Shown in pieces: positions 32,615 to 47,586 of a stretch of DNA of 64,000 bases (its first letter is position 1; the number at the start of each line of letters is the position of its first letter). The stretch covers positions 5,565 to 69,564 of the forward strand of contig JBATLQ010000045.1 of the NCBI GenBank assembly GCA_049289395.1, in the 5' to 3' direction. The notes under the pieces are model-generated. The model saw only the letters and a program-made list of their open reading frames with translations. It was not told where the DNA came from and did no database searches. The position numbers and the translations under genes are program-made. The DNA is from Candidatus Moraniibacteriota bacterium. GTDB taxonomy: Bacteria > Patescibacteriota > Minisyncoccia > Moranbacterales > UBA1568.

Positions 32615-32714
32615 GGCAAAATCTCTTCAAAAAACACTCCGGAAATCGGAGTGTTTTTTTAATGCGAAGCGCTAAGAGATACTGTCGACATTCCTTCCAT
32701 ACATCTCTCAATCA

Positions 32715-33599
32715 CTATCGCTTGAAGTCCGCACTGATTTTCCAAATACCTTTTTCACGGAATGCTGGGATCGTCTGATGCCTTGCCGCATTCGATATCC
32801 CTGACGCAGGCACATCATGCTTCTTCGCGTATTGAGCAAGAGTAATGATATCACCACCCTTCATATAGGTAATTCTTTTGTTCATCGATTCCATGAGAGC
32901 AAGCGTCACTACTCGCTCCATGGAGCTCGTATCACCGTCATTTCGATACTCTCCAAATGTTTTGTAATATTTCGATTTTTCCTTATCCCGAATAATAATC
33001 GATGGAAGTCCGAGTTGAAACATCTGATAATTCATGAGCACCCGACCAATGCGACCATTCCCATCGCAAAACGGATGGATTGTCTCGAAATCCAAATGGA
33101 ACTTCGCGATCTTATCCAAAAAATACGCGTCAATGTTTCCGGAGTATTCCAGAAGAAGCGAGCCGATCATATGTTCGACGCGCTCCGGTGCCGGTGCCAC
33201 ATGTGTCCCCACGCGGACATACTCTCCGGTCTTGCGAAATCGTCCCGCATACTCATCATTGATTCCGCCGAGGAGCATCTGATGGAGGAAGAGCATGAGC
33301 TCCTTATCAACACTCTTTTCCTGAGACTTGGTCCGGATATAATTCATAACCCGTGCCAAATTCTTCGCCTCGAAAATTTCACGGACACTGACATCCCGAG
33401 ACACCTCCATTTCCAAGAGAATCTTCTCCGTTTCCCGAAGCGTCAGCGTCGAATTCTCGATAGCATTCGAATTGTAGACACTCTCTGGAATTTCCGCTTC
33501 ATCCAAGAGGACAAGCAAGGACTCCTTCCCTTTGCGCAAGGTATCATATTCGTTCTTCAGTACCTGAAGACGCTTCCTGATATGTGCTGATGTAGCCAT
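32715..33599 (-). CDS. Fic-family protein (AMPylase/ Fic-DOC)
   Basis: 294 aa; canonical Fic motif HPFCDGNGRIGR. Confidence 0.8.
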   Translation of the reverse strand: MATSAHIRKRLQVLKNEYDTLRKGKESLLVLLDEAEIPESVYNSNAIENSTLTLRETEKILLEMEVSRDVSVREIFEAKNLARVMNYIRTKSQEKSVDKELMLFLHQMLLGGINDEYAGRFRKTGEYVRVGTHVAPAPERVEHMIGSLLLEYSGNIDAYFLDKIAKFHLDFETIHPFCDGNGRIGRVLMNYQMFQLGLPSIIIRDKEKSKYYKTFGEYRNDGDTSSMERVVTLALMESMNKRITYMKGGDIITLAQYAKKHDVPASGISNAARHQTIPAFREKGIWKISADFKR

Positions 33600-33604
33600 A
33601 TTTT

Positions 33605-33697
33605 TTCGTGAATTGTATGTATAAAGTATACATCATTCACGATTTATTGTCAATAATTCGTGAATTTTAGTGAAAAATAGACAATATTCACGATTTA
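33605..33697. promoter_or_regulatory. palindrome-rich operator/promoter region upstream of fic
   Basis: TTCGTGAAT (33605-33613, 33657-33665) paired with ATTCACGA (33643-33650, 33686-33693); inner palindromes TGTATA...TATACA and TTATTGTCAATAA. Confidence 0.45.
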
Positions 33698-33901
33698 TGG
33701 AACCAATTTCTCAGGTTTGTTTACAATCACCCATCTTTACCCCTCCAGAAAATTGTTTGGAAGCCTTGCCTCCAAACAGTCAAGATACATTTCCCCCCTT
33801 CTCTTCTTTGAGACGGAACTTCACGATCTTTCGGATCAGTGCGAGCGGGAGCTTCCCTCCGAGCGGGAATTGGAAATCGGATGGCACCCAACAACAGCTT
33901 T

Positions 33902-34261
33902 CTAGTTCTCCAAAGAATCCAAATACTCCTGTATCAATCCCCTGTCCTCATTTTCTTTCTCACCCTTGTAGTACAGCTCGATAAAATCTATCAGGACAAC
34001 TTCTCCGTTATCAATATTATGCGCGTAAATAATACGAAACAATGACTGCCCCTTCAGCGACGCGCAAGAAAGCCGCACCTTGAAAATAGTAATACATCCG
34101 TTATCCGAAATATGCAGCCTGTTCCAATGCTTGCTTCCATTGCCAAGTGGCAACACCCTCAAAACATCCTGGAGCTTGCTGAGATCGCTCTGCAATGATC
34201 TGTATTTCTTACTCAATCGCTTTAGTTCCTTCGAAAATTTCTGTGATTGCCGGAATTCCAT
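33902..34261 (-). CDS. type II toxin, RelE/ParE superfamily (HigB-like)
   Basis: ~120 aa from MEFRQSQKF; C-terminal RIIYAHNIDNGEVVLIDFIELYYKGEK pattern; 20 nt downstream of HTH-DUF4065 gene. Confidence 0.5.
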   Translation of the reverse strand: MEFRQSQKFSKELKRLSKKYRSLQSDLSKLQDVLRVLPLGNGSKHWNRLHISDNGCITIFKVRLSCASLKGQSLFRIIYAHNIDNGEVVLIDFIELYYKGEKENEDRGLIQEYLDSLEN

Positions 34262-34280
34262 ATGTCTGTTCGGTGCAGTA

Positions 34281-34997
34281 TTACAATTCATTATACTGTC
34301 GTACAGACAATTTCTCCGGGCGATAGAAAACATGATCGTACTCGATATTCTTCCCATCCTCTGCGGCAAACCACGGCGTATCCTCATGCGAAAGTACCGA
34401 GAGCTCCGCAGCACTCTTCTCTCCATATCGCGCCAGCACACTATCGATCATCGTCATTTCCTGAGCACTCAGACTGCTCAAGTCTGCATGGCGATGTGGC
34501 AGAAATTTCCTCTGCTCATAAGTAAAGTACGCACTCTTCACTTCTTCCAATTCTCCACTTTTCTTCATCTCCTCCACGACACTCACGAATTCCCTCGGCG
34601 TCGGACCATGATGATTCTTGATATAGGTCAGTCCCATGAGTTGATCCTCGTACTTCTCATAGTAATCAAAGTCGATGAAATAGAGGAGCTTATAGAGCAC
34701 AGTCATACCGACATTCGGCTTCCCTGCCGTCTTTTCCAAGACATACAGAAAAACCTGCTTGAATTTCTCAAGTTTCTTCTGCGGAATACTGACACGCATA
34801 TCCCCCTTCGGAGATACATGATCCCTCACGATACCGAAAATCTCTTGAATCTTCCATTCTTCCACCTTGGTCAATTTCCGCTCATTATTTTCAACCTTGG
34901 CCAAAGTCGGACGGGAAATATCCAAACGCTTCGCAAGCTCTCCCTGCGACATGCCATATTCTTCCCGCAATTTTCGTACATCAATTTTCTGGGACAT
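34281..34997 (-). CDS. antitoxin-like HTH (XRE) + DUF4065 (Panacea/SocA-like) domain protein
   Basis: N-terminal HTH MSQGELAKRLDISRPTLAKVENNER; DUF4065-like LYKLLYFIDFDYYEKYEDQLMGLTYIKNHHGP. Confidence 0.55.
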   Translation of the reverse strand: MSQKIDVRKLREEYGMSQGELAKRLDISRPTLAKVENNERKLTKVEEWKIQEIFGIVRDHVSPKGDMRVSIPQKKLEKFKQVFLYVLEKTAGKPNVGMTVLYKLLYFIDFDYYEKYEDQLMGLTYIKNHHGPTPREFVSVVEEMKKSGELEEVKSAYFTYEQRKFLPHRHADLSSLSAQEMTMIDSVLARYGEKSAAELSVLSHEDTPWFAAEDGKNIEYDHVFYRPEKLSVRQYNEL

Positions 34998-35188
34998 AAT
35001 ACTTTTTTTAGTACCTTAATAATACCACCCTTTCTATCACTCTGCAAAGAATTTGTCAATATATAGTAATAATTTACACAATTACTTTACAAAATAAACC
35101 TAATAATATACAATGATGCTGTCGAATGAGGGGGAACCCTCTCAACGGTCGGGTTCGGCTAATAAACACAATAATCCAAACAAACGGT

Positions 35189-35377
35189 ATGGCAATGTAT
35201 CGCCTCAAAAAAGATGCCAATAGACAATATTACTGGATTTTGCAATCTAGCGAAAATCGTAAGATTGTCGCTATGAGTAGCGAATCATACGATTCCAAGC
35301 AGGGAGCTCTCAACTCCATCAGCTGGACAAAAGCAAACGCAGACAAAGCGGGATTCGAAGATAATACTCAGCTTTAA
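35189..35377 (+). CDS. YegP/DUF1508-family small protein
   Basis: MAMYRLKKDANRQYYWILQSSENRKIVAMSSESYDSKQGALNSI matches UPF0339 repeat. Confidence 0.6.
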   Translation: MAMYRLKKDANRQYYWILQSSENRKIVAMSSESYDSKQGALNSISWTKANADKAGFEDNTQL

Positions 35378-35412
35378 ATTCGCTTCAAAGAGAAAAATGA
35401 AAATAAAAATCT

Positions 35413-35452
35413 AAAAAGAGGGCGTGTATTGAGACACGACCTCTTTTTTACT
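35413..35452 (+). terminator. intrinsic terminator
   Basis: AGAGGGCGTGT-attgag-ACACGACCTCT followed by TTTTTT. Confidence 0.55.
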
Positions 35453-35610
35453 TCCCTACCCCCACACTAAAGGCTTCTTGAAGAATGGATTGCTCGAGGC
35501 GGTCGAGCACGCCGGAGCAGAGGTATTCCTCATTCGCTTCTCCTTATGATATTCAGACATACGTTTCACTTACGAGTTACATATTTTGGTATGTAACTAC
35601 AAAAAGGAAC

Positions 35611-36021
35611 TCAATCACTCTTCCGATCTCCTATGACTTGTATATCTGTGACACGGATATTCTCCAGACACTTCGAGTCACCATAGTACTCGCAATCATC
35701 AGGCTCTTTCTCTCCTGTTATTTTAAATACACCGTTTTCATTTTCCCTCACATATTTTACATAATCATCAATCCTTTTTTCATCATCCATCTTTTCAATC
35801 ATTGCAAAGAACCATGGATGATCCTCAAACTCATCTAGTACCCTTCCTTGTTCGATATCATAGTAAGAGAATCGCACATCCCCCGATGTTGAAACTCTTG
35901 AAAGAACGCCATATCTTTCTACAAAAGAACTCCTCCCTGCATTATGTATATTCACCCACAAAATAGAAGCCGCAATAGCAACAAGAAGGAATATTGAAAT
36001 ATAGAGTGAATTTTTTTTCAT
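35611..36021 (-). CDS. hypothetical secreted/membrane-anchored protein
   Basis: signal-peptide-like MKKNSLYISIFLLVAIAASILW; last gene of minus-strand operon. Confidence 0.4.
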   Translation of the reverse strand: MKKNSLYISIFLLVAIAASILWVNIHNAGRSSFVERYGVLSRVSTSGDVRFSYYDIEQGRVLDEFEDHPWFFAMIEKMDDEKRIDDYVKYVRENENGVFKITGEKEPDDCEYYGDSKCLENIRVTDIQVIGDRKSD

Positions 36022-36025
36022 GATA

Positions 36026-36784
36026 TTATTCCATTTTGGATAAAACTTTAATTTCATTCGCCATCCTTATCCATTCTGCATTACTTATTCCATGTGCCAT
36101 TGGATGAGGTATTACAAAATAATTGATGCCTTCCTTTTTACAATAATGAAATCCCTCCGACTTCTTAAATTGACACTTCGCTATTTCAATCCAATGAGGA
36201 AGGTACATAAATGAACAGAAAATTACAGTGGTTGGTCGATGCTTGCTGATATATTTTTGATACAACTTAATCCTCATTGGCATTACCTCCTGAAAATACA
36301 CCCCTCGTGTCATCAAATAATCAATTTTAAAATTAAAATAAACCCAATCCAGCTCGCGTATTGAGCTCGATGGTAATGGCATTAGATCAAGAATACAATG
36401 ATTGCTATCTCGTCGACCAAATCTCGTTTTCTGATATTCTCTCACAATTTCAGTAGTCACAGATTGCTCCTCAAAGGCAAGCAACATGGTGATCAGCTTA
36501 CTCCAAGTTCTTTGAATAGGAGGTCGTTCCCCTAAAAAATATCTTATGTGATCTGGGACATCCGTCATGTCATCACAAATATCAACAACCAAACTATCCT
36601 TTGTTGCTTTGAAGCGAGGCTTCAGATCTTCTAATTCGCCAGCAAACCCCTCTTCCATACACACAAACCAAATATTTGAGTCAATATTTCCATAACCCAA
36701 AAAATTATTGATCCTATTTTCTATAAGTTCTTTCGAAATCATTGCTTTTTTGAAGAAATATTTTTCAATTCCACTTATGAACAC
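36026..36784 (-). CDS. hypothetical protein with uracil-DNA-glycosylase-fold-like motifs (divergent)
   Basis: GYGNIDSNIWFVCMEEGF resembles UDG family-4 motif GEGxpxArlMfVGEAPG; NHCILDLMPLP resembles NvVKCRPP; C-terminal VIPHPMAHGISN resembles HPSxLLRN; by-eye only. Confidence 0.3.
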   Translation of the reverse strand: MFISGIEKYFFKKAMISKELIENRINNFLGYGNIDSNIWFVCMEEGFAGELEDLKPRFKATKDSLVVDICDDMTDVPDHIRYFLGERPPIQRTWSKLITMLLAFEEQSVTTEIVREYQKTRFGRRDSNHCILDLMPLPSSSIRELDWVYFNFKIDYLMTRGVYFQEVMPMRIKLYQKYISKHRPTTVIFCSFMYLPHWIEIAKCQFKKSEGFHYCKKEGINYFVIPHPMAHGISNAEWIRMANEIKVLSKME

Positions 36785-36895
36785 ACGGATTCCGTGTTCG
36801 CCTCCCCTTGTAGTATTCGGACATAGTGGTTAGTGATAAAAAATGGTATCTAGCCTCTCTTCTATTTTTGGATTGTTGAACATAATTCTTCTTAT

Positions 36896-38887
36896 TTATC
36901 CTTTTGAGGTGATAGCCTCCTTCTTGAGACTTAGAATCCTATTCACAACCTTTTCGAGAGACGCACTGCTTTCCCCTGCTGCTTTTGCGCTAGTTATAAT
37001 ATCAGTAACTATATTCGGATTCTTTATTGCGTGTTTCTTCTTTGTTACTCCATACTTTTTCTGACATTCCACAAGAATCCTTTCAAATTCAACAGTGCCG
37101 ATTTCCTCACAAAGAGTGCTTTCAAGTTTGTCTTTAAAGCACGAAAATTTATCTTCAATATATGCTGGCCATTCCTCCTCAATACTACCGACCAATCTGA
37201 GCAATTTTTTATTCTCATCAGGATTCGCCTTTCCATCTGCTTTTCCACACAACTCACACGCTCCAGATGTCTCGCCTTTTCCATAATCGCCATCCCAAAC
37301 TATATATGTCGGTATTCCTAATTTTGTGAAAATTATGTACGGTCTATCTATATTCGTTTTTCCTCCACAAGGAATTATAGAAAATCCATCCCCCTCCAAT
37401 TCGTGCCCCATTGCTTTTGCGGTACCCAATATAGCCGCCCTATCATCTTCACCCTCAACAAGAATATTCGCATCAGCAAAAAATCCCTCATTCATCCAAG
37501 GCGTCATTATGGCGTGAAGCCTGGGAATCAAACTGGCTCCAGTATACTGTTGTCCGCGCTTCCCGTCAGCTTCCCAGCTAGCTAAAGCAACTTCATCTAG
37601 TGTCGTATGAATAACCTTTGTTATTTTCGGTTTCTCCACCTCGTTTACTAACTTACGAAAAAGCCTTATCTGGTCAATCCTATCGATGCCCACAAAATGA
37701 GGAGAGTGAGTACAATATATAATTTGAGTGTTATCGGCTACTCCTGGCATTTTTCCGTCTGCTAACTGTCTTAGTATTTTTGCCAAATGTCTCTGTCTAT
37801 TCGGATGCTGATAAATTTCTGGCTCCTCGATTGCCAAAATAAGCGTGGGTAAATCCGTTTCAGTTACTCCTTCATCGGTCTTTGCACTCTTAACTTGTTC
37901 CATTGCCAAATGCTGAAGTAGGGTCAAAATAAATGCTCGCTGTAGCCCGTGCCCGGTTTTTTCAACTGACGACTCAAATCCGTCTTCAATCAGCTTTATA
38001 TCAGCTTGTGGCATAGGCATAGTAATGCCGGCAAGTGGAAGCCAATTCAATCCAACTTGAGCATTTGGAACATAAATCTTCATCGTTTCAGTCATCTGTT
38101 TTTCTAGAACCTTCAATTCAGTAAGCTTTTCAGGATCCATTATTTCCTTATACTTTTCCTCGGTCTTATTTTTCAATTTAACATACTCCTCCTTTCTCAC
38201 AAGAACACTTCTTACAACCAAATCCATCAAGCGAGAAAACGTAGAGCTTTTTCCATCTTCAATATCAATACCCGCATTACGAACAGCAGGTATAAAGAGA
38301 AACTGCGAAAACTTTCCCAGATAACCCTTCGCCACGCTCTTAAAACCGAAAAATTGTCCGTCATCTCTCATACGAACACATTGTGTACGATTCTCATTCT
38401 CCCATTTATCCAACTCAATTACAGTTGTCTGATTCTTCCAATCCGGCAATCTCTGATATTTTTCATTTTTTTTTAATTCAACATATTTCTCTTTCTTGTC
38501 TCTCGCTGAAGAAGCATTCCTCACTGAAGCGAAATCTGGATTCTGCAAACTTGCACCGTGATACTTAAAACTCGGTTTACCATCAGTCCAATCAATTACA
38601 AGCTCAATAGTTAATTTGTCGTCCTGTAAATAAGAACCAAAAAGACGTTTTGCTTCTTCTGAAAGCTTTTTATATGTAACGGCTACGACTATAGGCGATG
38701 ATGTATCCTTATTATAATAATCATCCTGTTTAATGCTTTGAGAAAAAGCATAAAATATCTCAAGCGCCTTCAGGAAAGTCGACTTTCCTGTCCCATTTGC
38801 CCCAACCAATGCCGTCAGATCCTCCAAATAAACTTCTTCATCCAATAGCGATCTATAATTTTTAATTAAAACAGATTCAATCAACAT
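36896..38887 (-). CDS. OLD-family ATP-dependent nuclease (ABC-type ATPase + C-terminal Toprim)
   Basis: 663 aa; Walker A LVGANGTGKST, Walker B LILAIEEPEIYQHP, H-loop IIYCTHSPHF; C-terminal Toprim motifs ILVEGEDD and IVWDGDYGKGE. Confidence 0.7.
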   Translation of the reverse strand: MLIESVLIKNYRSLLDEEVYLEDLTALVGANGTGKSTFLKALEIFYAFSQSIKQDDYYNKDTSSPIVVAVTYKKLSEEAKRLFGSYLQDDKLTIELVIDWTDGKPSFKYHGASLQNPDFASVRNASSARDKKEKYVELKKNEKYQRLPDWKNQTTVIELDKWENENRTQCVRMRDDGQFFGFKSVAKGYLGKFSQFLFIPAVRNAGIDIEDGKSSTFSRLMDLVVRSVLVRKEEYVKLKNKTEEKYKEIMDPEKLTELKVLEKQMTETMKIYVPNAQVGLNWLPLAGITMPMPQADIKLIEDGFESSVEKTGHGLQRAFILTLLQHLAMEQVKSAKTDEGVTETDLPTLILAIEEPEIYQHPNRQRHLAKILRQLADGKMPGVADNTQIIYCTHSPHFVGIDRIDQIRLFRKLVNEVEKPKITKVIHTTLDEVALASWEADGKRGQQYTGASLIPRLHAIMTPWMNEGFFADANILVEGEDDRAAILGTAKAMGHELEGDGFSIIPCGGKTNIDRPYIIFTKLGIPTYIVWDGDYGKGETSGACELCGKADGKANPDENKKLLRLVGSIEEEWPAYIEDKFSCFKDKLESTLCEEIGTVEFERILVECQKKYGVTKKKHAIKNPNIVTDIITSAKAAGESSASLEKVVNRILSLKKEAITSKG

Positions 38888-38946
38888 ACATGAAAAATCA
38901 AAAAGGGATAAGTCTATTTGCTATATAAATTAAATCAATTAGTTTT

Positions 38947-39168
38947 TTAAAATTTGGATTGGTATCTTGGTTTATATTTGTTAATATAAGCATTCAAACC
39001 ATTATGCTCGCACGCTAATCTTTTCATATTTTCAATATGATTCGATCCTGCACTCATGTATGTATAGATATAAACTGATCCATCATGAAATTGGACTTTG
39101 ATATAGTCATTACCAATTTCAAAAGCATCTACATTTGAATCACCATCTCTATCATTATATGGTTGCAT
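38947..39168 (-). CDS. KTSC-domain small protein
   Basis: 73 aa; IKVQFHDGSVYIYTYMSAG matches KTSC pattern. Confidence 0.4.
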   Translation of the reverse strand: MQPYNDRDGDSNVDAFEIGNDYIKVQFHDGSVYIYTYMSAGSNHIENMKRLACEHNGLNAYINKYKPRYQSKF

Positions 39169-39182
39169 ATAATTTCTATTTA

Positions 39183-39911
39183 TTACGAAATGAATTTAGT
39201 GGTCGCTTCAACAAGCTTAACAAAGCATTGTTTTATATCAGTCCAATCATTACTATTTATCTCCACTTTGTCGCCATCATTATAATTTTTAATATTAGCA
39301 CTAAATACCCTTGTCGCACTTACAAATTTCTTATCTATAATACCTCCTTTATGCACCAACACATGCCTAAGTTCCAAATAAAAACATATCTTTTTCTCAA
39401 TCTCATCTTCCAAGGAAATATTTTTTGATAAATATTTTTCAAAATTTCTTTTTATTGCCTGAAAATCCTGAAAATTAGGCTTTACTTTTTCAAGAACAAG
39501 CCTGCCAAATCCACCCCGATAGGTAAGTTTATTTTTAACTAGTTCAGCCAAAGTAATTTTTATCCCTTCTAACTCTTTATTTTCCAGATTGATTCCATTG
39601 AAACCATTCAAAGCATTTTCAAAATACTTCTTCAGAGTCGCCTCTAAACTTGAAACTGCAAGGATACACATTTGCGAGTATATAACTTTAAAATTGTTTT
39701 CAATTGATCTATTGTTAATATTTTCCAGTCCGCTCTTCGCATTATCCAAAGCTATTTTCACAGTTGTTTGTATTCCAGAAGTATTAATCGCTACAGTCAA
39801 GGCTTGAACTGCCATATCTTTAATCAAACTTGGTGTCCGTTCAAGTTTATCGATATCAGCAAGTTCTTTTTTAAAATTCTTGAGGTAATCAGTCGTTGGC
39901 AATCTTGACAT
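39183..39911 (-). CDS. hypothetical protein with HEPN-like R-x4-H motif
   Basis: 242 aa, mostly helical; ELRHVLVHKGG fits HEPN Rx4-6H signature; first gene of operon. Confidence 0.35.
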   Translation of the reverse strand: MSRLPTTDYLKNFKKELADIDKLERTPSLIKDMAVQALTVAINTSGIQTTVKIALDNAKSGLENINNRSIENNFKVIYSQMCILAVSSLEATLKKYFENALNGFNGINLENKELEGIKITLAELVKNKLTYRGGFGRLVLEKVKPNFQDFQAIKRNFEKYLSKNISLEDEIEKKICFYLELRHVLVHKGGIIDKKFVSATRVFSANIKNYNDGDKVEINSNDWTDIKQCFVKLVEATTKFIS

Positions 39912-39963
39912 ATTTTTTTATACAAACATCCATTATAAAAATCCTTTTTAAACTCCTTTCTTA

Positions 39964-39994
39964 TGAAAACAAACACCCCGGAAGTCCGGGGTGA
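39964..39994 (-). terminator. intrinsic terminator (minus strand) separating DpnI-like operon from OLD operon
   Basis: perfect 9-bp stem CACCCCGGA-AGT-TCCGGGGTG; on minus strand followed by UUUGUUUUC. Confidence 0.5.
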
Positions 39995-40140
39995 TGGAAT
40001 AATCTTGCGAATATGGCTCTTTCCTTTCTTCTTTTTCTATTTAGGATGGGTTTTATTTTTTGTTAGTCCTAGCATACCACAACATGTGAAAAAATACAAG
40101 TGTCAAATCTTTTGAAAAATAAACAAATTTTCATACATAA

Positions 40141-40356
40141 TTATGAACCTGTCCAATCCTCTCTGCACTGTGCGCACCGTTCATTGCCAGTATGATCAAA
40201 ACAGTCAGTAAATTTGTTCGGCTCATATCTTTGCTCATCTTCATTCCAAAAAAACTCGTCATCAATGAGTGTCTCGACAAGCTTTCTTTCTGCTCCGCAA
40301 TGCTGGCAAGCATGCCTAGGAAAATTTTTTGTTTGTACATCCATATTCCCGATCAT
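40141..40356 (-). CDS. small zinc-ribbon protein (71 aa)
   Basis: CQHCG...CAQC Cys pairs; 15 nt downstream of DpnI-like gene. Confidence 0.35.
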   Translation of the reverse strand: MIGNMDVQTKNFPRHACQHCGAERKLVETLIDDEFFWNEDEQRYEPNKFTDCFDHTGNERCAQCREDWTGS

Positions 40357-40371
40357 TGATCGAAAACAAAT

Positions 40372-41139
40372 CTATGTCAAACGATACTGTCCATAACCAA
40401 CAAACTCCAGATAACCCTTATTCCTCAAAATCTGTAACTGTTGCCTTATTTTAGGTCTTATATTTTTGTTTTCAGGATGAATTATAGATAAATCGTACTC
40501 GAAAGCATACATATCCTGTAGGGTAAATTTCTTTTGATTGAGTGAATCAATACAATTCATAATATCCAAGATCCACCCTTTGCTATCCGATTTTTTAATT
40601 TTTTTCAAAAATAATGTCTTCTGCCATTTTTCCAGTACGCTCTTTTTATCCGTCTCTTTCCCATTTTCTACATAGAATATTTGTCCAGCCTTTGGAATCT
40701 TTGAGAATAAAATATTCGAGCCAATCCAGCCAGCGCGTCTGGCATTTTCTCTGAGTGGTTTCCTTTTTTCAATAATCTCGGAGATAAAAAAATGTTTCGG
40801 TATAACAAAAAAATCATACACCTTTGAGGCTTCAGCTATATACCCCATAAAAAAGAAATTTGGTTTTTCTGATGAATTGATTCTTTTGATCATTTGAGAA
40901 TAGGCTCCGGCGGAAACCTTTTTACCAATTTTCCCATTTTTAGATTTTAACTCAAAGTCTTCAACACATGTTTTACAATAAAAATCAGCAACTGGTTTAT
41001 TATTACCATAATTGTAAATACCATTGCCACAATTCGGACAATAAATCTCATGAAGCACCCATGCCTCACTTAAAACACGAGCTTTTTGAGAAACACTCCT
41101 ATACTGAATCGCTAATTTCGTATCAAAAAATAAATTCAT
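40372..41139 (-). CDS. DpnI-like (Dam-replacing family) methyl-directed restriction endonuclease
   Basis: 255 aa; SQKARVLSEAWVLHEIYCPNCGN, ADFYCKTCVEDFELKSK (PD-ExK-like with Zn ribbon), NFFFMGY, RRAGWIGSNI and C-terminal winged-helix-like IRQQLQILRNKGYLEF, as remembered for DpnI. Confidence 0.55.
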   Translation of the reverse strand: MNLFFDTKLAIQYRSVSQKARVLSEAWVLHEIYCPNCGNGIYNYGNNKPVADFYCKTCVEDFELKSKNGKIGKKVSAGAYSQMIKRINSSEKPNFFFMGYIAEASKVYDFFVIPKHFFISEIIEKRKPLRENARRAGWIGSNILFSKIPKAGQIFYVENGKETDKKSVLEKWQKTLFLKKIKKSDSKGWILDIMNCIDSLNQKKFTLQDMYAFEYDLSIIHPENKNIRPKIRQQLQILRNKGYLEFVGYGQYRLT

Positions 41140-41235
41140 AATTGATGATCAATAATCTCCACTGAAAACTCATTTCATAAATGAAATGGTGTCACTATGA
41201 CAAACAATCCTATTTGTCCAAGAACCAATCCATAA

Positions 41236-41694
41236 TCAGAGATTAATTTGATACTGCAGTCGCCTTGTCTTAATCCGCTGATTTAATTCTTCAGATGTCA
41301 ACATTGCGTACCCCTTGCTTTCCGGGTGAAGGCTGACGAAACAAAAACGGTACTGCTTACCCAGTTTATCTGCTAATCGAAACTCATTTTCTGTTGCGCC
41401 AAAGAAAAATCCATCAGGATTATTAACGAGTTTTTTCTGAGTTGTTTTAAGTTCAATCAATACAATCTGCTCAAATGGAACATCCATAATACTCATACCA
41501 CTTACCATTGGAAGAAGAACGAGATCAAATGCACGAGAAAATGTCATTGGCAAATCAAGGCGCCTCAAAATCTCCTTTCGTTCTTCTTTGCTTGGCTTCT
41601 TAAAGCGAGCATCTGATTCAAGTAAAAAATCAACCGCTGATGTCTCGGTTATATTATTCTTAATTGTTGCGCCATATGAATGTTGGTGTGCCAC
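41236..41694 (-). CDS. PD-(D/E)XK-like nuclease superfamily protein (152 aa)
   Basis: AFDLVLLP ... IVLIELKTT matches D...ExK core. Confidence 0.35.
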   Translation of the reverse strand: MAHQHSYGATIKNNITETSAVDFLLESDARFKKPSKEERKEILRRLDLPMTFSRAFDLVLLPMVSGMSIMDVPFEQIVLIELKTTQKKLVNNPDGFFFGATENEFRLADKLGKQYRFCFVSLHPESKGYAMLTSEELNQRIKTRRLQYQINL

Positions 41695-41937
41695 GATCTG
41701 ATTAGATCATACAAAAGCACCCAGATCAAGATCGCCACCAGAAAACTATTCCCCATAATAAAAATTCCCCCATTCTCCCACCCCAGTCGGAATAGCACAA
41801 GTTCCGACGGGAGAAACAAAAAAATCCCTTCTCGGTGGGAATTTCATCCTATTTTCTCTCCCCAGTGACCTTACATGTGGTGTGCCCCAGTTACATTCCG
41901 AATGATGTAACGGGGCAGGCGGGGTAAACCACCCTAT

Positions 41938-42474
41938 TTATTCAGCAACAAATCGAATCGAGATCTTTTTGTCCATATACTGTCGAAGGTGTCCGATGAG
42001 AGTCGCAGCGACCTCATTCATTTCCATACTTTCAACTTCTTTCAATATGGTAATTTCAGCCAAATCTTCGCTCGTCTCATCGTTGATAATCGTAATCACA
42101 CCAGGCCTCTTCCCTATGACGATAGATTTCAATACTCCTTTCTCTTTTTTGGTTATCTTCAATTCATCAACCATCATGCTGTATGTTTCTGCTGCTGTTT
42201 CATAATCCTTTTTCGACTCAACCAGCCCTGCTATCCTATTGACGGCTAAGCCATTCTTCATATGCTCACCCATTATTTTCGATAGTGAAAAAACCTCCTC
42301 ACGGGGAGCCTGCTTCAATTCCAATTCTTCGAGAGAAAGCCCCATCGCCAGCTGATATGAAACGAAAAGTTCCTCGCTACTGATATTGTTGCTTTTCGAA
42401 AAAGATATTATCTCTTCCAACTGCTTCTCTTGCGGATCATCTCCCGTCTTCGGAAACTCCATTGGATTTTTCAT
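41938..42474 (-). CDS. hypothetical protein (178 aa)
   Basis: ORF with coding-like composition, acidic; no family recognised. Confidence 0.4.
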   Translation of the reverse strand: MKNPMEFPKTGDDPQEKQLEEIISFSKSNNISSEELFVSYQLAMGLSLEELELKQAPREEVFSLSKIMGEHMKNGLAVNRIAGLVESKKDYETAAETYSMMVDELKITKKEKGVLKSIVIGKRPGVITIINDETSEDLAEITILKEVESMEMNEVAATLIGHLRQYMDKKISIRFVAE

Positions 42475-42697
42475 ACTATATTTGTTATTTCTTCCAATCC
42501 CGAATTACTACCCCACCGCGGACGCGGGTGACCACTACTTTTTGCTTCTCTCTCCATCCAAGCTCGCGGACGAGCTCAATCGGGAGCGTCAGCCCAATAG
42601 ACTTTCCACCGAGTTTGGTAAGTTTCCGAACGCTTTTATCCGTTGCTTGTTTTGGCATAATATTTTCTTTAGTTTATCGCCTCATTTTCAGTCCCCC

Positions 42698-42726
42698 TTG
42701 TCAATTTTGTCAATATTTGGTATATT
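42698..42726 (+). promoter_or_regulatory. sigma70-like promoter TTGTCA-17-TATATT
   Basis: TTGTCA 42698-42703, spacer attttgtcaatatttgg, TATATT 42721-42726. Confidence 0.5.
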
Positions 42727-42732
42727 CTAGTT

Positions 42733-42790
42733 GGTCGCGAGGAAACCCGCGCCCATCAAAATGGAGTCTCCTTGGGAGGCTCTTTTTTGA
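42733..42790 (+). ncRNA. candidate ~55-nt small RNA (promoter-to-terminator unit), antisense to 3' end of DUF3800 gene
   Basis: promoter above; terminator hairpin GAGUCUCC-UUG-GGAGGCUC (one G.U) then UUUUUU at 42765-42790; a GCGAGG/CCCGCG 5' hairpin. Confidence 0.3.
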
Positions 42791-43565
42791 TATTCTCCTT
42801 GATATTCTCCAAAGTTAATGGAAAAACTTTCAATCCAATTCCTAAGCAATCCCCTTTTACCTTCAAGAGCTTTGGATAAGTGATATCACTATAGCGCCAA
42901 TATTCTTCTGGCTTTTTCCCATACTCAAAAATATGATACACGGGATAGCAATAGAGATCAGCTATTTGTATTCCGACAGTATCCTCGGAAGTCGAATACA
43001 GAAGCTTTTCAACGATATTCGGACACTTTTTCCATATATCCCCATCCCTCCATCGCATCATATGATGAATATCCTTAAGAGAATCACCGATAAATGATTT
43101 TTCAACTGTTCCGACACGAGGATCAATCACACAGAGACCGAGCGAATTCCGCTCTTTCAAAAATCGCTGAAATCTTTCGAGGAGATAGAGGTATGCTATC
43201 TCATATGGATTCTGTGATGGGTATTGTTTCCAATAAGCATCCTTATTAATCACTATGGCTATCAATGTGATTGGCAGGGAAACCAAGTATGCCTTTATAT
43301 CAGCCTCAAGTTGATTATACATTTCTCGATCATGCAGTTTGAGCGGCGATTCCTGTTCCAAGTCGGGATTCGCATACCGAAGGAAGTTTGATTTGATTTC
43401 AAGATCTTCATTCTGAAAATATTTCTTTTTGATTACACGGAGATCTTCTTCAACTTTCACGCGGTCCGAATCATTGATGATGCATCCAGTCAAAACCAAA
43501 AACTGCTTTCCTTTTTGAGAAAGCGGTATAGTATCACCCGATTCATCTATATACATGAGATACAT
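42756..43565 (-). CDS. DUF3800-family protein
   Basis: 269 aa; N-terminal MYLMYIDESGD hallmark of DUF3800. Confidence 0.6.
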   Translation of the reverse strand: MYLMYIDESGDTIPLSQKGKQFLVLTGCIINDSDRVKVEEDLRVIKKKYFQNEDLEIKSNFLRYANPDLEQESPLKLHDREMYNQLEADIKAYLVSLPITLIAIVINKDAYWKQYPSQNPYEIAYLYLLERFQRFLKERNSLGLCVIDPRVGTVEKSFIGDSLKDIHHMMRWRDGDIWKKCPNIVEKLLYSTSEDTVGIQIADLYCYPVYHIFEYGKKPEEYWRYSDITYPKLLKVKGDCLGIGLKVFPLTLENIKENIKKEPPKETPF

Positions 43566-43723
43566 GGATTTCTACGATATGCGTCTACCAATATAATTAC
43601 ATACCTCGTTACATATATCCTATCACCTCCCCATTCCCACGGCAATTTACGCCGAGTCCCTTTATGAAGGGAATTTCATCGCTCTTGAAAGCAAAAATCC
43701 GCCACTCGGGCGGATATTTTCCA

Positions 43724-44020
43724 CTAATCCATGCTCACCTTGATCTCGCGTATCGCTTCGAGGCCGAGCATGGAATTCGTTTTTTCGGCGATATTCTTTC
43801 TATTGAGCCAGATTTCACTCGCCCAGAGGGAACTCCGGAAGCCGACGAAGAGCTTTTTCTCCTTATAGAACCTCGGTTCTATATTTTCCTCACCCCTCGT
43901 CCCATATTCCGCGTGGATCACCTTATTGAAAACCGAGAAAATCGTCTTTTCATCGATTTCTTTCAGCTCTTTCGGTGCTTGAAAGTTCTTTTTTTCGAGA
44001 TATTGTCTGAGATCAAGCAT
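43724..44020 (-). CDS. DUF721/DciA-like small protein
   Basis: 98 aa; RSSLWASEIWLNRKNIAEKTNSMLGLEAIREIKV resembles DUF721; immediately downstream of dnaN. Confidence 0.5.
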   Translation of the reverse strand: MLDLRQYLEKKNFQAPKELKEIDEKTIFSVFNKVIHAEYGTRGEENIEPRFYKEKKLFVGFRSSLWASEIWLNRKNIAEKTNSMLGLEAIREIKVSMD

Positions 44021-44033
44021 ACAAGTGGCTCCA

Positions 44034-45185
44034 TTATTTCCGAATAGGCATCGCTATATAGAGGAAATGCTGTTTTTTCTCACCATCCACATCGTTCATA
44101 CGGAAAGCGACCGGCGTATGGGGAGTATTACACTGGAGCGTCACCTTCTCACCCTGGAGGATATTGAGCCCGTCGAGGATATATTTCGGATTAAACGAGA
44201 TCGCCATATCCGTATCACCCTGTATATCCGCCGAAAGAGTGACTTTATTCTCTCCAATCTCCTGAGAGAGCGATGCGACCACTACTTTCCCCTCCTGTGG
44301 AAGAAGAGTAAAAATAATTTCTCCTGCTGATTGGGAAGAAAAGACACTTCCCACCCGAACCGCCCGCAAGAGCTCCTCTCGGTCGAATACCACTTGGGAG
44401 GAAAACTTCTGTGGAATAATCTGCTTATAATCAGGATATTTCCCATTGATGAGTCGGGATATGATCTGTATTTCATCTACCTGGAAGAATATCTGATTCT
44501 CATGTAAGGCTATTTTCACCCACTCGCTCTCGGGAGTGATGCTCCGCTGAAGCTCCTGGAGAGTCGCCGCGGGGATGATGAGTGATGGGTGACTCTCGAT
44601 AAATGTGTGGTATTTTTCATTTTCACCCATATTTTCCAGAGGAAATATCTCCTCGCCGAGGCGAAAGCTATCCGTCGCCGCAAAATGAATTTCTTTCTCA
44701 AAGAAGAATGCATGTACTCCTGTGAGTTCGAGGCGACTATCCGTCAGTGAAACACATGGGAGAAGCCTTGAAAAGGCATTTTTCAGGGATTGTGCTGGGA
44801 GATTGAAGAAATATTCTCCATCATACTGTGGGATGAGAGGGAAGTCCTTCGCATCAAGCCCTTTTATTTTCATCTCATACCCACCACTCACGATTTTCAG
44901 GAAACTTCCCGTGGTCTCGAAAGAGAGGACATCCTGAAGAGGGAGATTGTGGATAAAATTCGAAAGGAGTTTGGCGGGAATCGTAATCCGACCCTCTTCC
45001 TCAATTTTCCCACCGACATAGGCGATAACACCGATTTCGAGGTTGGTTGCAGAGAGTTTGAGCCGCCCGCCTTTTGTTTCCAAAAGAAAGTTTCCGAGAA
45101 TCGGCAGAGTTGATTGCCTCCCGACGACTCGTTCGAGGATATTGATCGCATGAATGATATTTTCTTGGGTACAGAGGAGTTTCAT
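44034..45185 (-). CDS. dnaN: DNA polymerase III beta sliding clamp
   Basis: 383 aa; MKLLCTQENIIHAINILERVVGRQSTLPILGNFLLE N-terminus typical of DnaN; three-domain length. Confidence 0.9.
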   Translation of the reverse strand: MKLLCTQENIIHAINILERVVGRQSTLPILGNFLLETKGGRLKLSATNLEIGVIAYVGGKIEEEGRITIPAKLLSNFIHNLPLQDVLSFETTGSFLKIVSGGYEMKIKGLDAKDFPLIPQYDGEYFFNLPAQSLKNAFSRLLPCVSLTDSRLELTGVHAFFFEKEIHFAATDSFRLGEEIFPLENMGENEKYHTFIESHPSLIIPAATLQELQRSITPESEWVKIALHENQIFFQVDEIQIISRLINGKYPDYKQIIPQKFSSQVVFDREELLRAVRVGSVFSSQSAGEIIFTLLPQEGKVVVASLSQEIGENKVTLSADIQGDTDMAISFNPKYILDGLNILQGEKVTLQCNTPHTPVAFRMNDVDGEKKQHFLYIAMPIRK

Positions 45186-45444
45186 AGGAGTATCTTTAAG
45201 AGTAAGGTTTCTTCTTTAATTATTTAAAAAAATTATTTATTACTATTAGGGGTGTGAATTGGTGGATAAGTGGATTATATGGCTTATGATAAGGATGAAA
45301 AAAGATGGGAGTAGGGAGGGTATTGGTGTGTAGGGGATGTGGGTTAGGTGTGATGGATGGGAATAGGTATGGGAATGATTTTTTTATACACGATACAAGG
45401 GGAGTTTAGGAGGGGTTATTCAGGGTTATACACATATTATACCG
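45186..45444. other. candidate oriC (dnaA-dnaN intergenic): AT-rich unwinding element plus DnaA-box-like motifs
   Basis: AT-rich ttaattatttaaaaaaattatttattactatt (45207-45243); GGTGGATAAG and GTGGATTAT close to TGTGGATAA; G/T-rich degenerate repeats; gene-orientation switch around this locus. Confidence 0.5.
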
Positions 45445-46875: not shown

Positions 46876-47015
46876 AGGGAATACAAGGGAATGAAATATA
46901 GGTAAATATATCATGACGGCACAATTCTATCGAGTGGGGCGGTGCATATCCGGTGTATAAGTAGGGAGGATGCGTGTGTCTGCCCGCATTGCTACGCAAA
47001 GCGTTGCGGGCGGGA

Positions 47016-47044: not shown

Positions 47045-47072
47045 AGTCCTGTTACTCATTGACGGTATTTGT

Positions 47073-47213: not shown

Positions 47214-47223
47214 CTCACAGGCT

Positions 47224-47556: not shown

Positions 47557-47586
47557 GATAGGGGAAGGATAATATAATTGTAAAAA

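What the first reader, a model, noticed from the sequence alone, without database searches (positions are those of the whole stretch)
35400..43600. AT-rich ~8-kb defence island inserted next to the replication origin (between the Fic/TA tract and dciA-dnaN-dnaA)
Eleven consecutive minus-strand genes of markedly lower G+C. They include an OLD-family ATPase/Toprim nuclease, a HEPN-like protein, a DpnI-like methyl-directed REase, a PD-(D/E)XK protein and a DUF3800 protein, all families recurrently found in anti-phage islands. No integrase, transposase or tRNA marks the borders. The left edge follows a terminator at ~35450 and the right edge abuts dciA.
Basis: partly seen in the sequence, partly recalled or inferred. 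Interest (0 to 1): 0.6.

Follow-up and report, generated by a model that had tools for sequence, protein, structure and literature searches.

The report
Defence-gene island beside the replication origin
An 11-kb, AT-rich block of about ten separate anti-virus and toxin modules sits next to the replication origin of an uncultured Moranbacteria (candidate phyla radiation) genome and is missing from its close relatives: an ordinary kind of feature with a few unusual parts.

Summary
Window 35400-43600 carries eleven consecutive minus-strand genes at 37% G+C, against 48-51% in the flanks, with tetranucleotide z-scores up to 8.4. OLD, DpnI and DUF3800 are confirmed by HMMs. The "HEPN-like" and "PD-(D/E)XK" calls are supported by a structure model and by conserved motifs.

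The borders need correcting. Two close relatives (DnaN 91% and 84% identical) have dciA convergent on the PBP1A gene; the gap is about 35 bp in the closer one and short in the other. The insert is therefore 32615-43696 (11.1 kb).

There is no integrase, no tRNA, no flanking repeat and no RNA family. Both junctions recur in per-sample assemblies.

New details:
- One unannotated gene has a uracil-DNA-glycosylase fold (Brig1/Brig2-like candidate) and is paired with a small membrane protein.
- The HEPN gene belongs to a family, mostly from candidate-phyla-radiation bacteria, that lies inside or next to restriction or nuclease loci in 7 of the 8 contexts examined. It travels with a zinc-ribbon gene and a KTSC-like gene as a 1.4-kb module.
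- Canonical KTSC genes precede relatives of this OLD nuclease in 24 of 70 loci.

Verdict: a horizontally acquired, mosaic defence island, and a new member of a known kind.

The parts
32615..43696 (.). Whole insert that is absent from the relatives, lying between the PBP1A stop and the dciA terminator
   Evidence: blastn against L003 and L004: window 30057-32610 and 43721-55217 align, and 32611-43720 has no counterpart. G+C is 0.389.
32626..32662 (.). Hairpin with T/A runs just after the PBP1A stop; left junction
   Evidence: 16-nt arms, 94% complementary, 5-nt loop (I6). Sequence shown.
32715..33599 (-). Fic AMP-transferase, 294 aa, SoFic / PDC-S04-like
   Evidence: Pfam Fic 8e-21. PADLOC PDC-S04 3.5e-37 and SoFic 1e-27. 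Intact HPFCDGNGRIGR motif.
33902..34261 (-). 119-aa putative toxin, partner of the Panacea antitoxin
   Evidence: It starts 20 nt after the antitoxin stop. The same pair recurs in L039 (36% and 43% identity) and, by domain and length, in L116 (HTH+Panacea 240 aa followed by 120 aa). No Pfam hit.
34281..34997 (-). HTH + SocA/Panacea-domain antitoxin, 238 aa
   Evidence: SocA_Panacea 5e-19 and HTH_3 7e-11.
35126..35377 (+). DUF1508 (YegP-like) small protein; the only plus-strand gene of the insert
   Evidence: PF07411 1e-7. Linked to the TA-Fic-PBP1A block in the per-sample contig L112.
35423..35438 (.).
35611..36021 (-). About 136-aa protein with one N-terminal hydrophobic helix; partner of the UDG-like gene
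   Evidence: Start refined to MKKNS, 4 nt after the upstream stop. 90% identical protein in the same position in L108.
36026..36742 (-). UDG-superfamily-fold protein, 238 aa; candidate antiviral DNA glycosylase
36789..36849 (-). Relic of the first codons of a PDDEXK_1 gene; recombination scar upstream of the UDG-like gene
   Evidence: 87-89% identical to the 5' ends of the PDDEXK_1 genes of L101 and L108.
36896..38887 (-). OLD-family ATPase-Toprim nuclease, 663 aa, Class-1-like
   Evidence: AAA_15 2e-46, OLD Toprim 6e-18, PADLOC Old 5e-55. Closest solved structure is T. scotoductus Class 1 OLD, 6P74, 2e-22. Walker A 29-36, EEPE 354-357, VEGEDD 477-482, DGD 532-534.
38947..39168 (-). 73-aa KTSC-like small protein, 14 nt after the HEPN gene and 59 nt before OLD
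   Evidence: phrog_17428 9e-17. hhalign against KTSC ORFs: probability 73%, E 3e-5. 78-89% identical copies sit next to p242 homologues in L096 and L101.
39183..39911 (-). HEPN-fold protein, 242 aa, with invariant R182-x4-H187
39974..39993 (-). Strong terminator-like hairpin between the zinc-ribbon gene and the HEPN gene
   Evidence: 8 pairs, 7 of them G-C, followed by a T run.
40141..40356 (-). 71-aa zinc-ribbon protein (CxxC ... CxxC)
   Evidence: C17/C20 and C61/C64. 69% identical protein in the same position in L101. The alternative 69-aa frame is much less conserved, 43%.
38954..40362 (-). 1.4-kb transferable module: zinc ribbon, HEPN, KTSC-like
   Evidence: 92% nucleotide identity to L101 and L102, where the flanking genes differ.
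40372..41139 (-). DpnI-type methyl-directed type IIM restriction endonuclease, 255 aa
   Evidence: PF06044 2e-74, DpnI_C 2e-31, PADLOC mREase_II 2e-105. Full-length match to PDB 4ESJ at 4e-78. Cys4 and D52/E63/K65 present.
41236..41694 (-). 152-aa PD-(D/E)XK-type (NOV_C-like) protein
   Evidence: 149 representative clusters found. D57 and K83 invariant, E81 nearly so. NOV_C hit in 20 of 40 members, best 1e-5, and 0.008 for the window protein.
41938..42474 (-). 178-aa near-orphan protein, possible toxin or effector
   Evidence: Only 3 homologues in 5.8 billion proteins; the identical one is named Candidatus Moraniibacteriota. The 59% homologue lies beside a type II R-M pair, DUF2130 and AAA_15.
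42485..42658 (-). 57-aa AbrB/MazE-type DNA-binding protein, 10 nt upstream of p178
   Evidence: PF04014 3e-7, 30.6 bits against a cutoff of 24.7. The 79% nt-identical gene precedes an NgoFVII-type restriction gene in L101. Promoter-like site at 42713-42684.
42756..43565 (-). DUF3800 protein, 269 aa, RNase-H-like fold family
   Evidence: PF12686 1e-19. DE motif at 7-8 and QxxD at 200-203. Family context from PMC7736814 and PMC10910872.
43697..43715 (-). Terminator-like hairpin after dciA; right junction
   Evidence: Homology with L003 resumes here.

Best explanation
The tract is the AT-rich, more recently acquired part of an 11.1-kb mosaic defence island (32615-43696). The island was inserted between two convergent core genes, PBP1A and dciA, about 1.5 kb from the likely origin, in a Candidatus Moraniibacteriota (candidate phyla radiation) genome.

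It is a string of independent cassettes, each with its own small regulatory unit. It is not one system.

1. A SoFic-like Fic AMP-transferase.
2. An HTH-Panacea antitoxin with a 119-aa toxin.
3. A DUF1508 protein.
4. A UDG-fold protein with a small membrane partner. Inferred role: removal of modified phage bases, as Brig1 and Brig2 do.
5. A Class-1-like OLD ATPase-Toprim nuclease. Inferred role: ATP-dependent nicking or degradation of replicating phage DNA.
6. A zinc-ribbon / HEPN / KTSC-like module. Inferred role: a metal-independent RNase that acts as a suicide or back-up arm beside restriction enzymes, as PrrC does.
7. A solitary DpnI-type enzyme. Inferred role: cutting incoming DNA that carries G(m6A)TC, which the host itself must lack.
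8. A small PD-(D/E)XK protein.
9. An AbrB/MazE-type regulator with an orphan 178-aa protein.
10. A DUF3800 RNase-H-like protein.

Shown here: gene content, fold and motif assignments, deviant composition, absence from relatives, and the mosaic sharing of cassettes with other islands.

Inferred: that the genes protect against phages, each biochemical activity, and the way the island arrived. No mobility gene is present, so arrival was probably by homologous recombination through the conserved flanks, or by cassette-by-cassette illegitimate recombination.
For: **Empty site.** L003 (DnaN 91%) and L004 (84%) have dciA and PBP1A adjacent. L006 (51%) also has no island after dciA. L004 is more distant from the window than L003 is, so gain in the window lineage is the simplest history.

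**Composition.** G+C 0.389 against about 0.50; tetranucleotide z up to 8.4; GC3 0.22-0.47 in the right part.

**Defence content.** OLD, DpnI, DUF3800 and Fic (PDC-S04/SoFic) by HMM. HEPN by fold and the Rx4H motif. UDG fold. PD-(D/E)XK motif. Panacea antitoxin. MazE/AbrB.

**Mosaic origin.**
- 38954-40362 is 92% identical to a module in L101/L102 that sits beside a different restriction system.
- 35621-36831 is 79% identical to a module in L108 beside a type I R-M operon.
- A relic of a PDDEXK_1 5' end marks one joint.
- Fic, the Panacea pair, the KTSC-like gene and the HEPN gene recur together in other candidate-phyla-radiation R-M islands, L096 and L116.

**Assembly.** Both junctions are present in per-sample assemblies, L112 and L001.

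**No other reading fits.** No tRNA, integrase, repeats or RNA families.
Against: No function has been tested. Five proteins (p148, p71zn, p178, the 119-aa toxin, DUF1508) have no assignable activity. Only three related genomes cover the site, all of them MAGs.

The left 2.8 kb has near-host GC3 (0.46-0.55). It could be an older, separate acquisition, or even ancestral and lost in the relatives.

Class 1 OLD genes are described as usually not lying next to other defence genes (PMC10568477). This one does.

Restriction and toxin-antitoxin genes can persist as selfish addiction modules without giving net protection.
Confidence: 0.85

Rival explanations
1. The tract is the decayed remnant of a prophage, integrative element or plasmid insertion. 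Its integration and structural genes have been lost and only its accessory (moron) genes remain.
For: OLD was first found on phage P2 (PMC10568477). OLD and the 73-aa protein match phage protein families: phrog_4747 at 2.5e-63 and phrog_17428 at 9e-17. One homologue of the UDG-like gene lies beside a relaxase, a coupling ATPase and a resolvase.
Against: The insert has no integrase, recombinase, capsid, tail, terminase or replication gene. There is no tRNA, and no direct repeats at the borders. The HEPN family was not found in 2.9 million viral contigs. The cassettes have different closest relatives and different composition, which fits piecemeal assembly and not one element.
Confidence: 0.07
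2. The region is ancestral, and the relatives lost it. The low G+C reflects local mutational or selective bias near the origin and not foreign origin.
For: Only three related genomes were available, and all are MAGs, in which islands are often missed by binning. The left 2.8 kb has GC3 close to that of the host.
Against: Loss would have to happen independently in L003, L004 and L006, and in L003 it would have to leave an exact 35-bp junction. dciA, dnaN and dnaA lie even closer to the origin and have normal composition. Two cassettes are 79-92% identical at the DNA level to cassettes in unrelated genomic contexts.
Confidence: 0.04
3. The cluster is mainly a set of selfish addiction modules (a solitary restriction enzyme, toxin-antitoxin pairs, Fic). 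These persist by post-segregational killing and give the cell little real antiviral benefit.
For: Two or three toxin-antitoxin-like pairs and a Fic toxin are present. No phage data exist for this lineage.
Against: DpnI-type enzymes have no cognate methylase and so cannot act as an addiction pair (established knowledge of type IIM enzymes). OLD, UDG-fold (Brig1/Brig2), HEPN and SoFic families have experimentally shown antiphage members (PMC12392090, PMC11078745, bioRxiv 10.1101/2025.10.29.685425).
Confidence: 0.04

Closest known systems
Defence islands (clusters of antiviral genes in variable genomic hotspots; Makarova et al. 2011, as cited in PMC10568477)
   Same: Dense cluster of unrelated defence and toxin genes. 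Variable between close relatives. Deviant composition. Cassettes shared with other islands.
   Different: It sits 1.5 kb from the likely origin, between dciA and a PBP1A gene, in a candidate-phyla-radiation bacterium. There is no mobility gene or tRNA at the borders. It has no CRISPR, no classical R-M with a methylase, and no helicase-based system.
Class 1 OLD nucleases (P2 Old, T. scotoductus OLD 6P74, V. cholerae Vc OLD)
   Same: Single polypeptide with an ABC-type ATPase and a Toprim domain, all motifs intact. No UvrD helicase, reverse transcriptase or split AriB next to it. The best solved relative is the Class 1 Ts OLD.
   Different: 663 aa against 528 for Ts OLD. It lies inside a defence island. 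It is preceded at 59 nt by a KTSC-like gene, and 26 of 80 relatives have a canonical KTSC gene adjacent. The current class scheme does not include that arrangement.
DpnI of Streptococcus pneumoniae (type IIM, PDB 4ESJ/4KYW)
   Same: Collinear over the full length (E 4e-78). Catalytic PD-(D/E)XK domain with a Cys4 zinc site, plus the C-terminal winged-helix domain.
   Different: Different neighbours: a PD-(D/E)XK gene upstream and a zinc-ribbon gene downstream. The host is a candidate-phyla-radiation bacterium. Specificity is untested.
Brig1 / Brig2 antiviral DNA glycosylases of the UDG superfamily
   Same: UDG fold. No detectable sequence similarity to housekeeping UDG families. Located in AT-rich defence islands and near R-M systems.
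   Different: The first motif reads M-E-E-G-F. There is an obligate-looking small membrane partner. The substrate is unknown.
HEPN RNases embedded in R-M operons (PrrC, AbiD/F, AbiU2, DUF4145, ApeA; Anantharaman et al. 2013, PMC3710099)
   Same: HEPN fold with an invariant Rx4H. The gene is placed inside type I and type III R-M operons, directly before the R gene, or beside type II/IV enzymes.
   Different: No match to any Pfam, PADLOC or NCBIfam HEPN model above noise. About 240 aa with an extra N-terminal helical region. No ABC ATPase domain. Frequent 73-aa KTSC-like neighbour. Mostly from candidate-phyla-radiation bacteria.
Retron type VII and Cas12a2/Cas13-associated DUF3800 proteins
   Same: DUF3800 domain with the N-terminal DE and C-terminal QxxD motifs.
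   Different: Stand-alone gene. No reverse transcriptase, non-coding RNA, CRISPR array or TPR domain nearby.

Membership tests
Defence island | Several unrelated defence-family genes clustered together | tested here: met
   OLD, DpnI, Fic/PDC-S04, HEPN, UDG-fold, DUF3800, a PD-(D/E)XK protein, and two toxin-antitoxin-like pairs within 11 kb.
Defence island | Variable presence at a conserved site in related genomes | tested here: met
   Absent between dciA and PBP1A in L003 and L004. Absent after dciA in L006.
Defence island | Antiviral protection by the genes | not testable with these tools
   Needs phage challenge of cloned cassettes.
Classical integrase-mediated genomic island or prophage | Integrase or recombinase, a tRNA or other att site, and flanking direct repeats | tested here: not met
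   No such domain. 0 tRNAs in 64 kb. Only chance-level repeats at the borders.
OLD family | N-terminal ABC-type ATPase with Walker A/B, plus a C-terminal Toprim domain with acidic residues | tested here: met
   AAA_15 residues 1-399 at 2e-46. OLD Toprim residues 469-534 at 6e-18. GANGTGKS, EEPE, VEGEDD and DGD present.
OLD Class 1 | Stand-alone gene, not next to a helicase, reverse transcriptase or AriB | tested here: inconclusive
   No helicase, reverse transcriptase or DUF4435 gene in the island. However, a KTSC-like ORF precedes it, and canonical KTSC ORFs are adjacent in 26 of 80 relatives. The gene also lies among defence genes, unlike the published description.
OLD Class 2 (Gabija) | UvrD/PcrA-like GajB helicase gene immediately downstream | tested here: not met
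   The downstream gene is the UDG-fold protein. GajA HMMs score below the Old HMM.
OLD Class 3 (retron I-B) | Adjacent reverse transcriptase and msr/msd RNA | tested here: not met
   No reverse transcriptase domain. No Rfam match at 32000-47500. The retron Eco8 effector model scores 46.7 bits against a cutoff of 250.
OLD Class 4 (PARIS) | Separate AriA ATPase and AriB Toprim proteins | tested here: not met
   The AriA HMM matches only residues 1-399 of one fused polypeptide.
DpnI-type IIM restriction endonuclease | DpnI catalytic domain plus the DpnI_C winged helix, with D...ExK and Cys4 | tested here: met
DpnI-type IIM restriction endonuclease | Cleavage only of G(m6A)TC, and a host without Dam methylation | not testable with these tools
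   No methylase in the island. GATC is not avoided in the flanks: 188 observed against 125 expected.
HEPN superfamily | All-alpha HEPN fold | tested here: met
HEPN superfamily | Rx4-6H motif | tested here: met
   R182, H183 and H187 are invariant in 30 homologues.
HEPN superfamily | Match to a curated HEPN sequence model | tested here: not met
   No Pfam, PADLOC, NCBIfam or PHROG hit for the window protein. Only 2 of 30 homologues touch HEPN_RiboL-PSP, at 0.019.
UDG superfamily / Brig-like antiviral glycosylases | UDG alpha/beta fold | tested here: met
UDG superfamily / Brig-like antiviral glycosylases | Conserved residues at the two UDG motif positions | tested here: inconclusive
   E30/G32 after strand 1 and P-H213-P after the last strand are invariant, and the motifs lie where expected from the secondary structure. 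No residue-level superposition was made. A sequence profile finds no solved UDG.
UDG superfamily / Brig-like antiviral glycosylases | Base-excision activity on modified phage DNA | not testable with these tools
   Needs biochemistry.
PD-(D/E)XK nucleases (NOV_C / DUF3883-like) | D ... (D/E)xK motif and a match to a family model | tested here: inconclusive
   D57 and K83 invariant, E81 at least 90%. NOV_C matched in 20 of 40 homologues, best 1e-5. The window protein scores 16.6 bits, below the 22.1 cutoff. No structure model was made.
DUF3800 | Pfam PF12686 match with the DE and QxxD motifs | tested here: met
   71.8 bits against a cutoff of 21. DESGD at 7-11 and QIAD at 200-203. Motif definition from PMC7736814.
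KTSC domain (PF13619) | Match of the 73-aa protein to the KTSC model | tested here: inconclusive
   No Pfam hit even at E = 1. phmmer gives 3.6e-4 to one KTSC ORF. hhalign gives probability 73%, E 3e-5, over 57 columns.
Fic / SoFic | Fic domain with HPFx(D/E)GNGRxxR | tested here: met
Panacea (PanA) toxin-antitoxin | Panacea-domain antitoxin directly upstream of a small toxin gene | tested here: met
   SocA_Panacea 5e-19. The 119-aa ORF starts 20 nt downstream. The pair is conserved in L039, and in L116 by domain and length. The toxin family was not identified.

The most novel reading that the evidence does not exclude
Small KTSC-type proteins may be dedicated partners (sensors or regulators) of defence nucleases.

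- Canonical KTSC genes sit 3-20 nt upstream of this OLD subfamily in 24 of 70 loci, on branches across the whole tree. That would define an OLD operon type outside Classes 1-4.
- A divergent KTSC-like gene is welded to a new HEPN family that is inserted in restriction or nuclease loci of candidate-phyla-radiation bacteria.

In this island the two themes meet, in the order HEPN, KTSC-like, OLD. Together with the UDG-fold/membrane-protein pair, the island would then hold two or three undescribed two-gene defence systems.
Probability: 0.3. Interest if true: 0.6.

Novelty: new member of a known kind. Interest (0 to 1): 0.4.

Why it matters
Candidate-phyla-radiation bacteria have tiny genomes and mostly lack CRISPR, so how they resist phages is poorly known. 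This locus shows one of them spending 11 kb beside its origin on at least ten stacked modules. Several are aimed at modified DNA (DpnI, a UDG-fold protein), and several are back-up toxins.

The island also gives concrete, clonable candidates for three untested pairings: UDG-fold with a membrane protein, HEPN with a KTSC-like protein, and KTSC with OLD. The island itself is an ordinary category of feature. Its value is as a source of candidates, not as a new principle.

Tried and rejected
1. **Partners of OLD.** I tested whether the two genes downstream of OLD are its partners. None of 80 loci with OLD relatives carries them, so this was rejected. They form their own pair instead.
2. **att-like repeats.** I looked for repeats at the borders and found only chance-level 20-nt matches inside coding sequence.
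3. **Structured RNAs.** An Rfam scan of 32000-47500 gave one sub-threshold hit: 23 bits against a gathering score of 97.
4. **HEPN family in viral contigs.** No relative found.
5. **UDG-like profile against PDB sequences.** Nothing below E = 0.08, so only the fold comparison was informative.
6. **HMM libraries.** Pfam, PADLOC, NCBIfam and PHROG scans gave nothing usable for p148, p252, p242, p71zn and p178.
7. **Literature on KTSC.** Searches for KTSC in defence or with OLD found nothing relevant.
8. **The 102-aa ORF at 32403-32711.** It overlaps the conserved 3' end of PBP1A and was set aside as probably spurious.
9. **The 69-aa alternative frame at 40131-40340** (called in one public assembly). 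It was rejected in favour of the 71-aa zinc-ribbon frame, which is far better conserved: 69% against 43%.
10. **Start codons.** The 252-aa and 148-aa ORFs were shortened to 238 and about 136 aa, on the evidence of homologue lengths and spacing.

Full report
**1. The observation**

The window shows a clear compositional trough. In 1-kb windows G+C falls from about 0.45-0.56 to 0.31-0.42 between 35 and 44 kb (finer scale). Region by region:

| Region | G+C |
|---|---|
| 1-32614 | 0.508 |
| 35401-43696 | 0.374 |
| 43697-64000 | 0.484 |

Tetranucleotide distance of 3-kb windows from the rest of the window reaches z = 5.0-8.4 between 34.5 and 40.5 kb. Outside the island it never exceeds 2.9.

Third-position G+C of the genes in the tract is 0.22-0.47, apart from a 57-aa gene at 0.52. 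For PBP1A, dciA, dnaN, dnaA and yidC it is 0.51-0.66.

Eleven consecutive minus-strand genes fill the tract.

Cumulative GC skew turns at about 44-45 kb. The 259-bp dnaA-dnaN spacer has an AT-rich stretch and DnaA-box-like sites. The likely origin is therefore about 1.5 kb from the right edge.

**2. Source organism**

The 178-aa protein is 100% identical to a GenBank protein named [quoted passage not shown], on a 69.6-kb contig. Homologues of several island genes come from Moranbacteria and Saccharibacteria. The host is therefore a bacterium of the candidate phyla radiation.

**3. The true borders**

A scan of one genome per species with DnaN found two close relatives: L003 (91% identical) and L004 (84%). 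In both, dciA is followed directly by the convergent PBP1A gene.

At the DNA level, window 30057-32610 and 43721-55217 align with L003 positions 14091-11535 and 11499-1. That leaves about 35 bp in L003 where the window has 11.1 kb (junction alignments).

A more distant genome, L006 (51%), also has nothing comparable after dciA.

L004 is further from the window than L003 is, so gain in the window lineage is the simplest history. The insert is therefore 32615-43696.

That left 2.8 kb has G+C 0.435 and GC3 0.46-0.55. It is either an older stratum or came from a closer donor.

Both junctions recur in per-sample assemblies of run SRR28060545. L112 links DUF1508, the TA pair, Fic and PBP1A. L001 links the HEPN gene through to rpmH. 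A chimeric assembly is therefore unlikely.

**4. No mobility signature**

The window has no tRNA gene. No island ORF has an integrase, transposase or recombinase domain. The only border-spanning repeat is a 20-nt, 80% match inside coding sequence. Rfam finds nothing. Hairpins with T-runs sit at both junctions and at 35423-35438.

**5. Gene content, left to right**

- **Fic (32715-33599).** It has an intact HPFCDGNGRIGR motif. It matches the PADLOC candidate system PDC-S04 at 3.5e-37 and SoFic at 1e-27.
- **Toxin-antitoxin pair (34281-34997 and 33902-34261).** The first is an HTH plus Panacea-domain antitoxin (5e-19). The second is a 119-aa ORF that starts 20 nt downstream. The pair recurs in L039 by sequence and in L116 by domain and length.
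- **DUF1508 (35126-35377, plus strand)**.
- **OLD (36896-38887).** It has all ATPase and Toprim motifs. Its closest solved relative is the Class 1 enzyme of T. scotoductus. There is no helicase, reverse transcriptase or separate Toprim protein nearby, so Classes 2-4 are excluded.
- **Zinc-ribbon / HEPN / KTSC-like module (38954-40362).** See section 6.
- **DpnI (40372-41139).** It is collinear with S. pneumoniae DpnI over its whole length (4e-78) and has the Cys4 site and D52/E63/K65. No methylase is present, and GATC is not avoided in the host flanks, 188 observed against 125 expected. This fits a methyl-directed enzyme in a Dam-negative host.
- **PD-(D/E)XK protein (41236-41694).** It belongs to a family of 149 representative clusters with invariant D57 and K83 and near-invariant E81. 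Half of 40 members touch the NOV_C model, best 1e-5.
- **AbrB/MazE-type gene (42485-42658).** This 57-aa gene (3e-7, above the Pfam cutoff) lies 10 nt upstream of the 178-aa near-orphan. Its 79% nt-identical counterpart precedes an NgoFVII-type restriction gene in L101. The only distant homologue of the 178-aa protein sits beside a type II R-M pair.
- **DUF3800 (42756-43565).** It has the DE and QxxD motifs. The family has an RNase-H-like fold and is found as a retron type VII effector and with Cas12a2 and Cas13 (PMC7736814, PMC10910872, bioRxiv 10.64898/2026.08.25.746378).

**6. The HEPN module**

The 242-aa protein has 108 homologues. The few that carry source names come from Moranbacteria and Saccharibacteria, and none has a Pfam domain. 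R182, H183 and H187 (Rx4H) are invariant.

Eight distinct genomic contexts were inspected. In seven the gene lies inside or beside restriction or nuclease genes:
- between hsdS and hsdR of type I systems (L096, L107, L116);
- between mod and res of a type III system, with SMODS-SLATT (L098-L100);
- beside an NgoFVII-type type II pair (L101-L105);
- between an Mrr-type and a PIN-type gene (L106);
- here, after DpnI.

One context (L115) shows no such neighbour.

HEPN RNases embedded in R-M operons as a second line of defence are a described theme (PrrC and others; PMC3710099). This is therefore a new family of a known kind.

Window 38954-40362 (zinc ribbon, HEPN, 73-aa gene) is 92% identical in DNA to L101/L102, where the neighbours differ. 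It is a transferable unit.

The 73-aa protein lies 13-14 nt from the HEPN gene in the window, L101, L096 and L116, on either side of it. Its similarity to the KTSC domain is only probable: hhalign probability 73%, E 3e-5, and no direct Pfam hit.

**7. KTSC and OLD**

A search of metagenome contigs gave 80 loci with relatives of this OLD protein, 33-73% identical. In 24 of the 70 loci with enough upstream sequence, a 70-aa ORF ends 3-20 nt before the OLD start. Two more loci have such an ORF just downstream. No such ORF occurs elsewhere in the flanks.

The four of these ORFs that were scanned (three from OLD loci plus one from L096) gave strong Pfam KTSC matches for the three OLD-adjacent ones, 1e-19 to 1e-28. 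Carriers are spread over the whole neighbour-joining tree, including its deepest branches. This suggests an ancestral two-gene operon with losses.

The published class scheme (single gene; with helicase; with retron; split PARIS) does not include this arrangement (PMC10568477). No paper in the library links KTSC to defence.

The window's OLD and its closest relative L016 lack a canonical KTSC gene. The KTSC-like gene 59 nt upstream here seems to belong to the HEPN module. The link between this and the canonical KTSC+OLD operon is suggestive, not shown.

**8. How the island was built**

The cassettes differ in composition (GC3 0.22 to 0.55) and in their closest relatives. Short shared pieces mark the joints:
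- a 45-60-nt relic of the first codons of a PDDEXK_1 gene lies upstream of the UDG-like gene, both here and in L108, where two copies flank a 2.4-kb cassette;
- a 50-nt stretch upstream of DUF3800 matches the region upstream of the AbrB-type gene in L101.

This points to cassette shuffling among islands of related bacteria by recombination at short homologies. The whole would then be fixed at this site, possibly through the conserved flanks. The mechanism of arrival is inferred, not shown.

**9. Verdict**

The left border is wrong, and the content is richer than described.

It is a new member of a known kind, a defence island. It has modest intrinsic surprise, but it holds three untested gene pairings worth following up.

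Noticed in passing
L016-L095 (metagenome loci with OLD relatives), e.g. L038:2457-2669, L017:4024-4236, L089:4095-4313: A 70-aa KTSC-domain ORF (Pfam 1e-19 to 1e-28) ends 3-20 nt before the OLD start in 24 of 70 loci, and is adjacent in 26 of 80. It is found nowhere else in the flanks, and carriers are scattered over the whole OLD tree. This operon is not part of the published Class 1-4 scheme.
   Followed up: partly
window 36789-36849; L108:5869-5953 and 8255-8344; L101:12550-12634: A conserved 45-60-nt piece that equals the first codons of PDDEXK_1 genes (ATGTCCGAATACTACAAGGGGAAGCGAACACGGAATC) lies as a relic upstream of the UDG-like gene. In L108 two copies flank a 2.4-kb cassette, like a recombination scar.
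   Followed up: partly
window 33623-33647 and 33674-33698: Two 25-nt direct repeats, 84% alike and 51 nt apart, overlap the best promoter-like site (TTGACA-17-TATACT) upstream of the Fic gene. They may be an operator.
   Followed up: no
window 27805-30057: Two ATP-grasp/RimK-type genes at G+C 0.41-0.43 do not align at DNA level with L003 or L004, which carry other ATP-grasp genes at the same place. This is a second variable spot just beyond PBP1A.
   Followed up: partly
L006:11200-18100: In this more distant relative (DnaN 51%) the block from the 7TM-transglutaminase gene to PBP1A is inverted relative to dnaN-dciA, compared with the window, L003 and L004.
   Followed up: no
L096, L116 (Moranbacteria-type contigs); L098-L100 (Saccharibacteria): Type I and type III R-M operons of candidate-phyla-radiation bacteria are interleaved with Fic, Bro-N, DUF4145, SMODS-SLATT, KTSC-like and HEPN genes between the M/S and R genes. 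L116 also carries a Panacea toxin-antitoxin pair like the one in the window.
   Followed up: partly
window 1-32614: GATC is more frequent than expected from base composition (188 observed, about 125 expected), although the genome carries a DpnI-type enzyme. This implies the host does not methylate GATC.
   Followed up: no
window 39974-39993: A strong G+C-rich hairpin with a T run lies inside the 229-nt spacer between the zinc-ribbon gene and the HEPN gene. It is part of the 92%-conserved module. Either the two genes are transcribed separately or the hairpin is regulatory.
   Followed up: no
window 1-3000: The first 3 kb of the window also deviate in tetranucleotide composition (z 2.8-2.9) and have higher G+C (0.54-0.55).
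   Followed up: no
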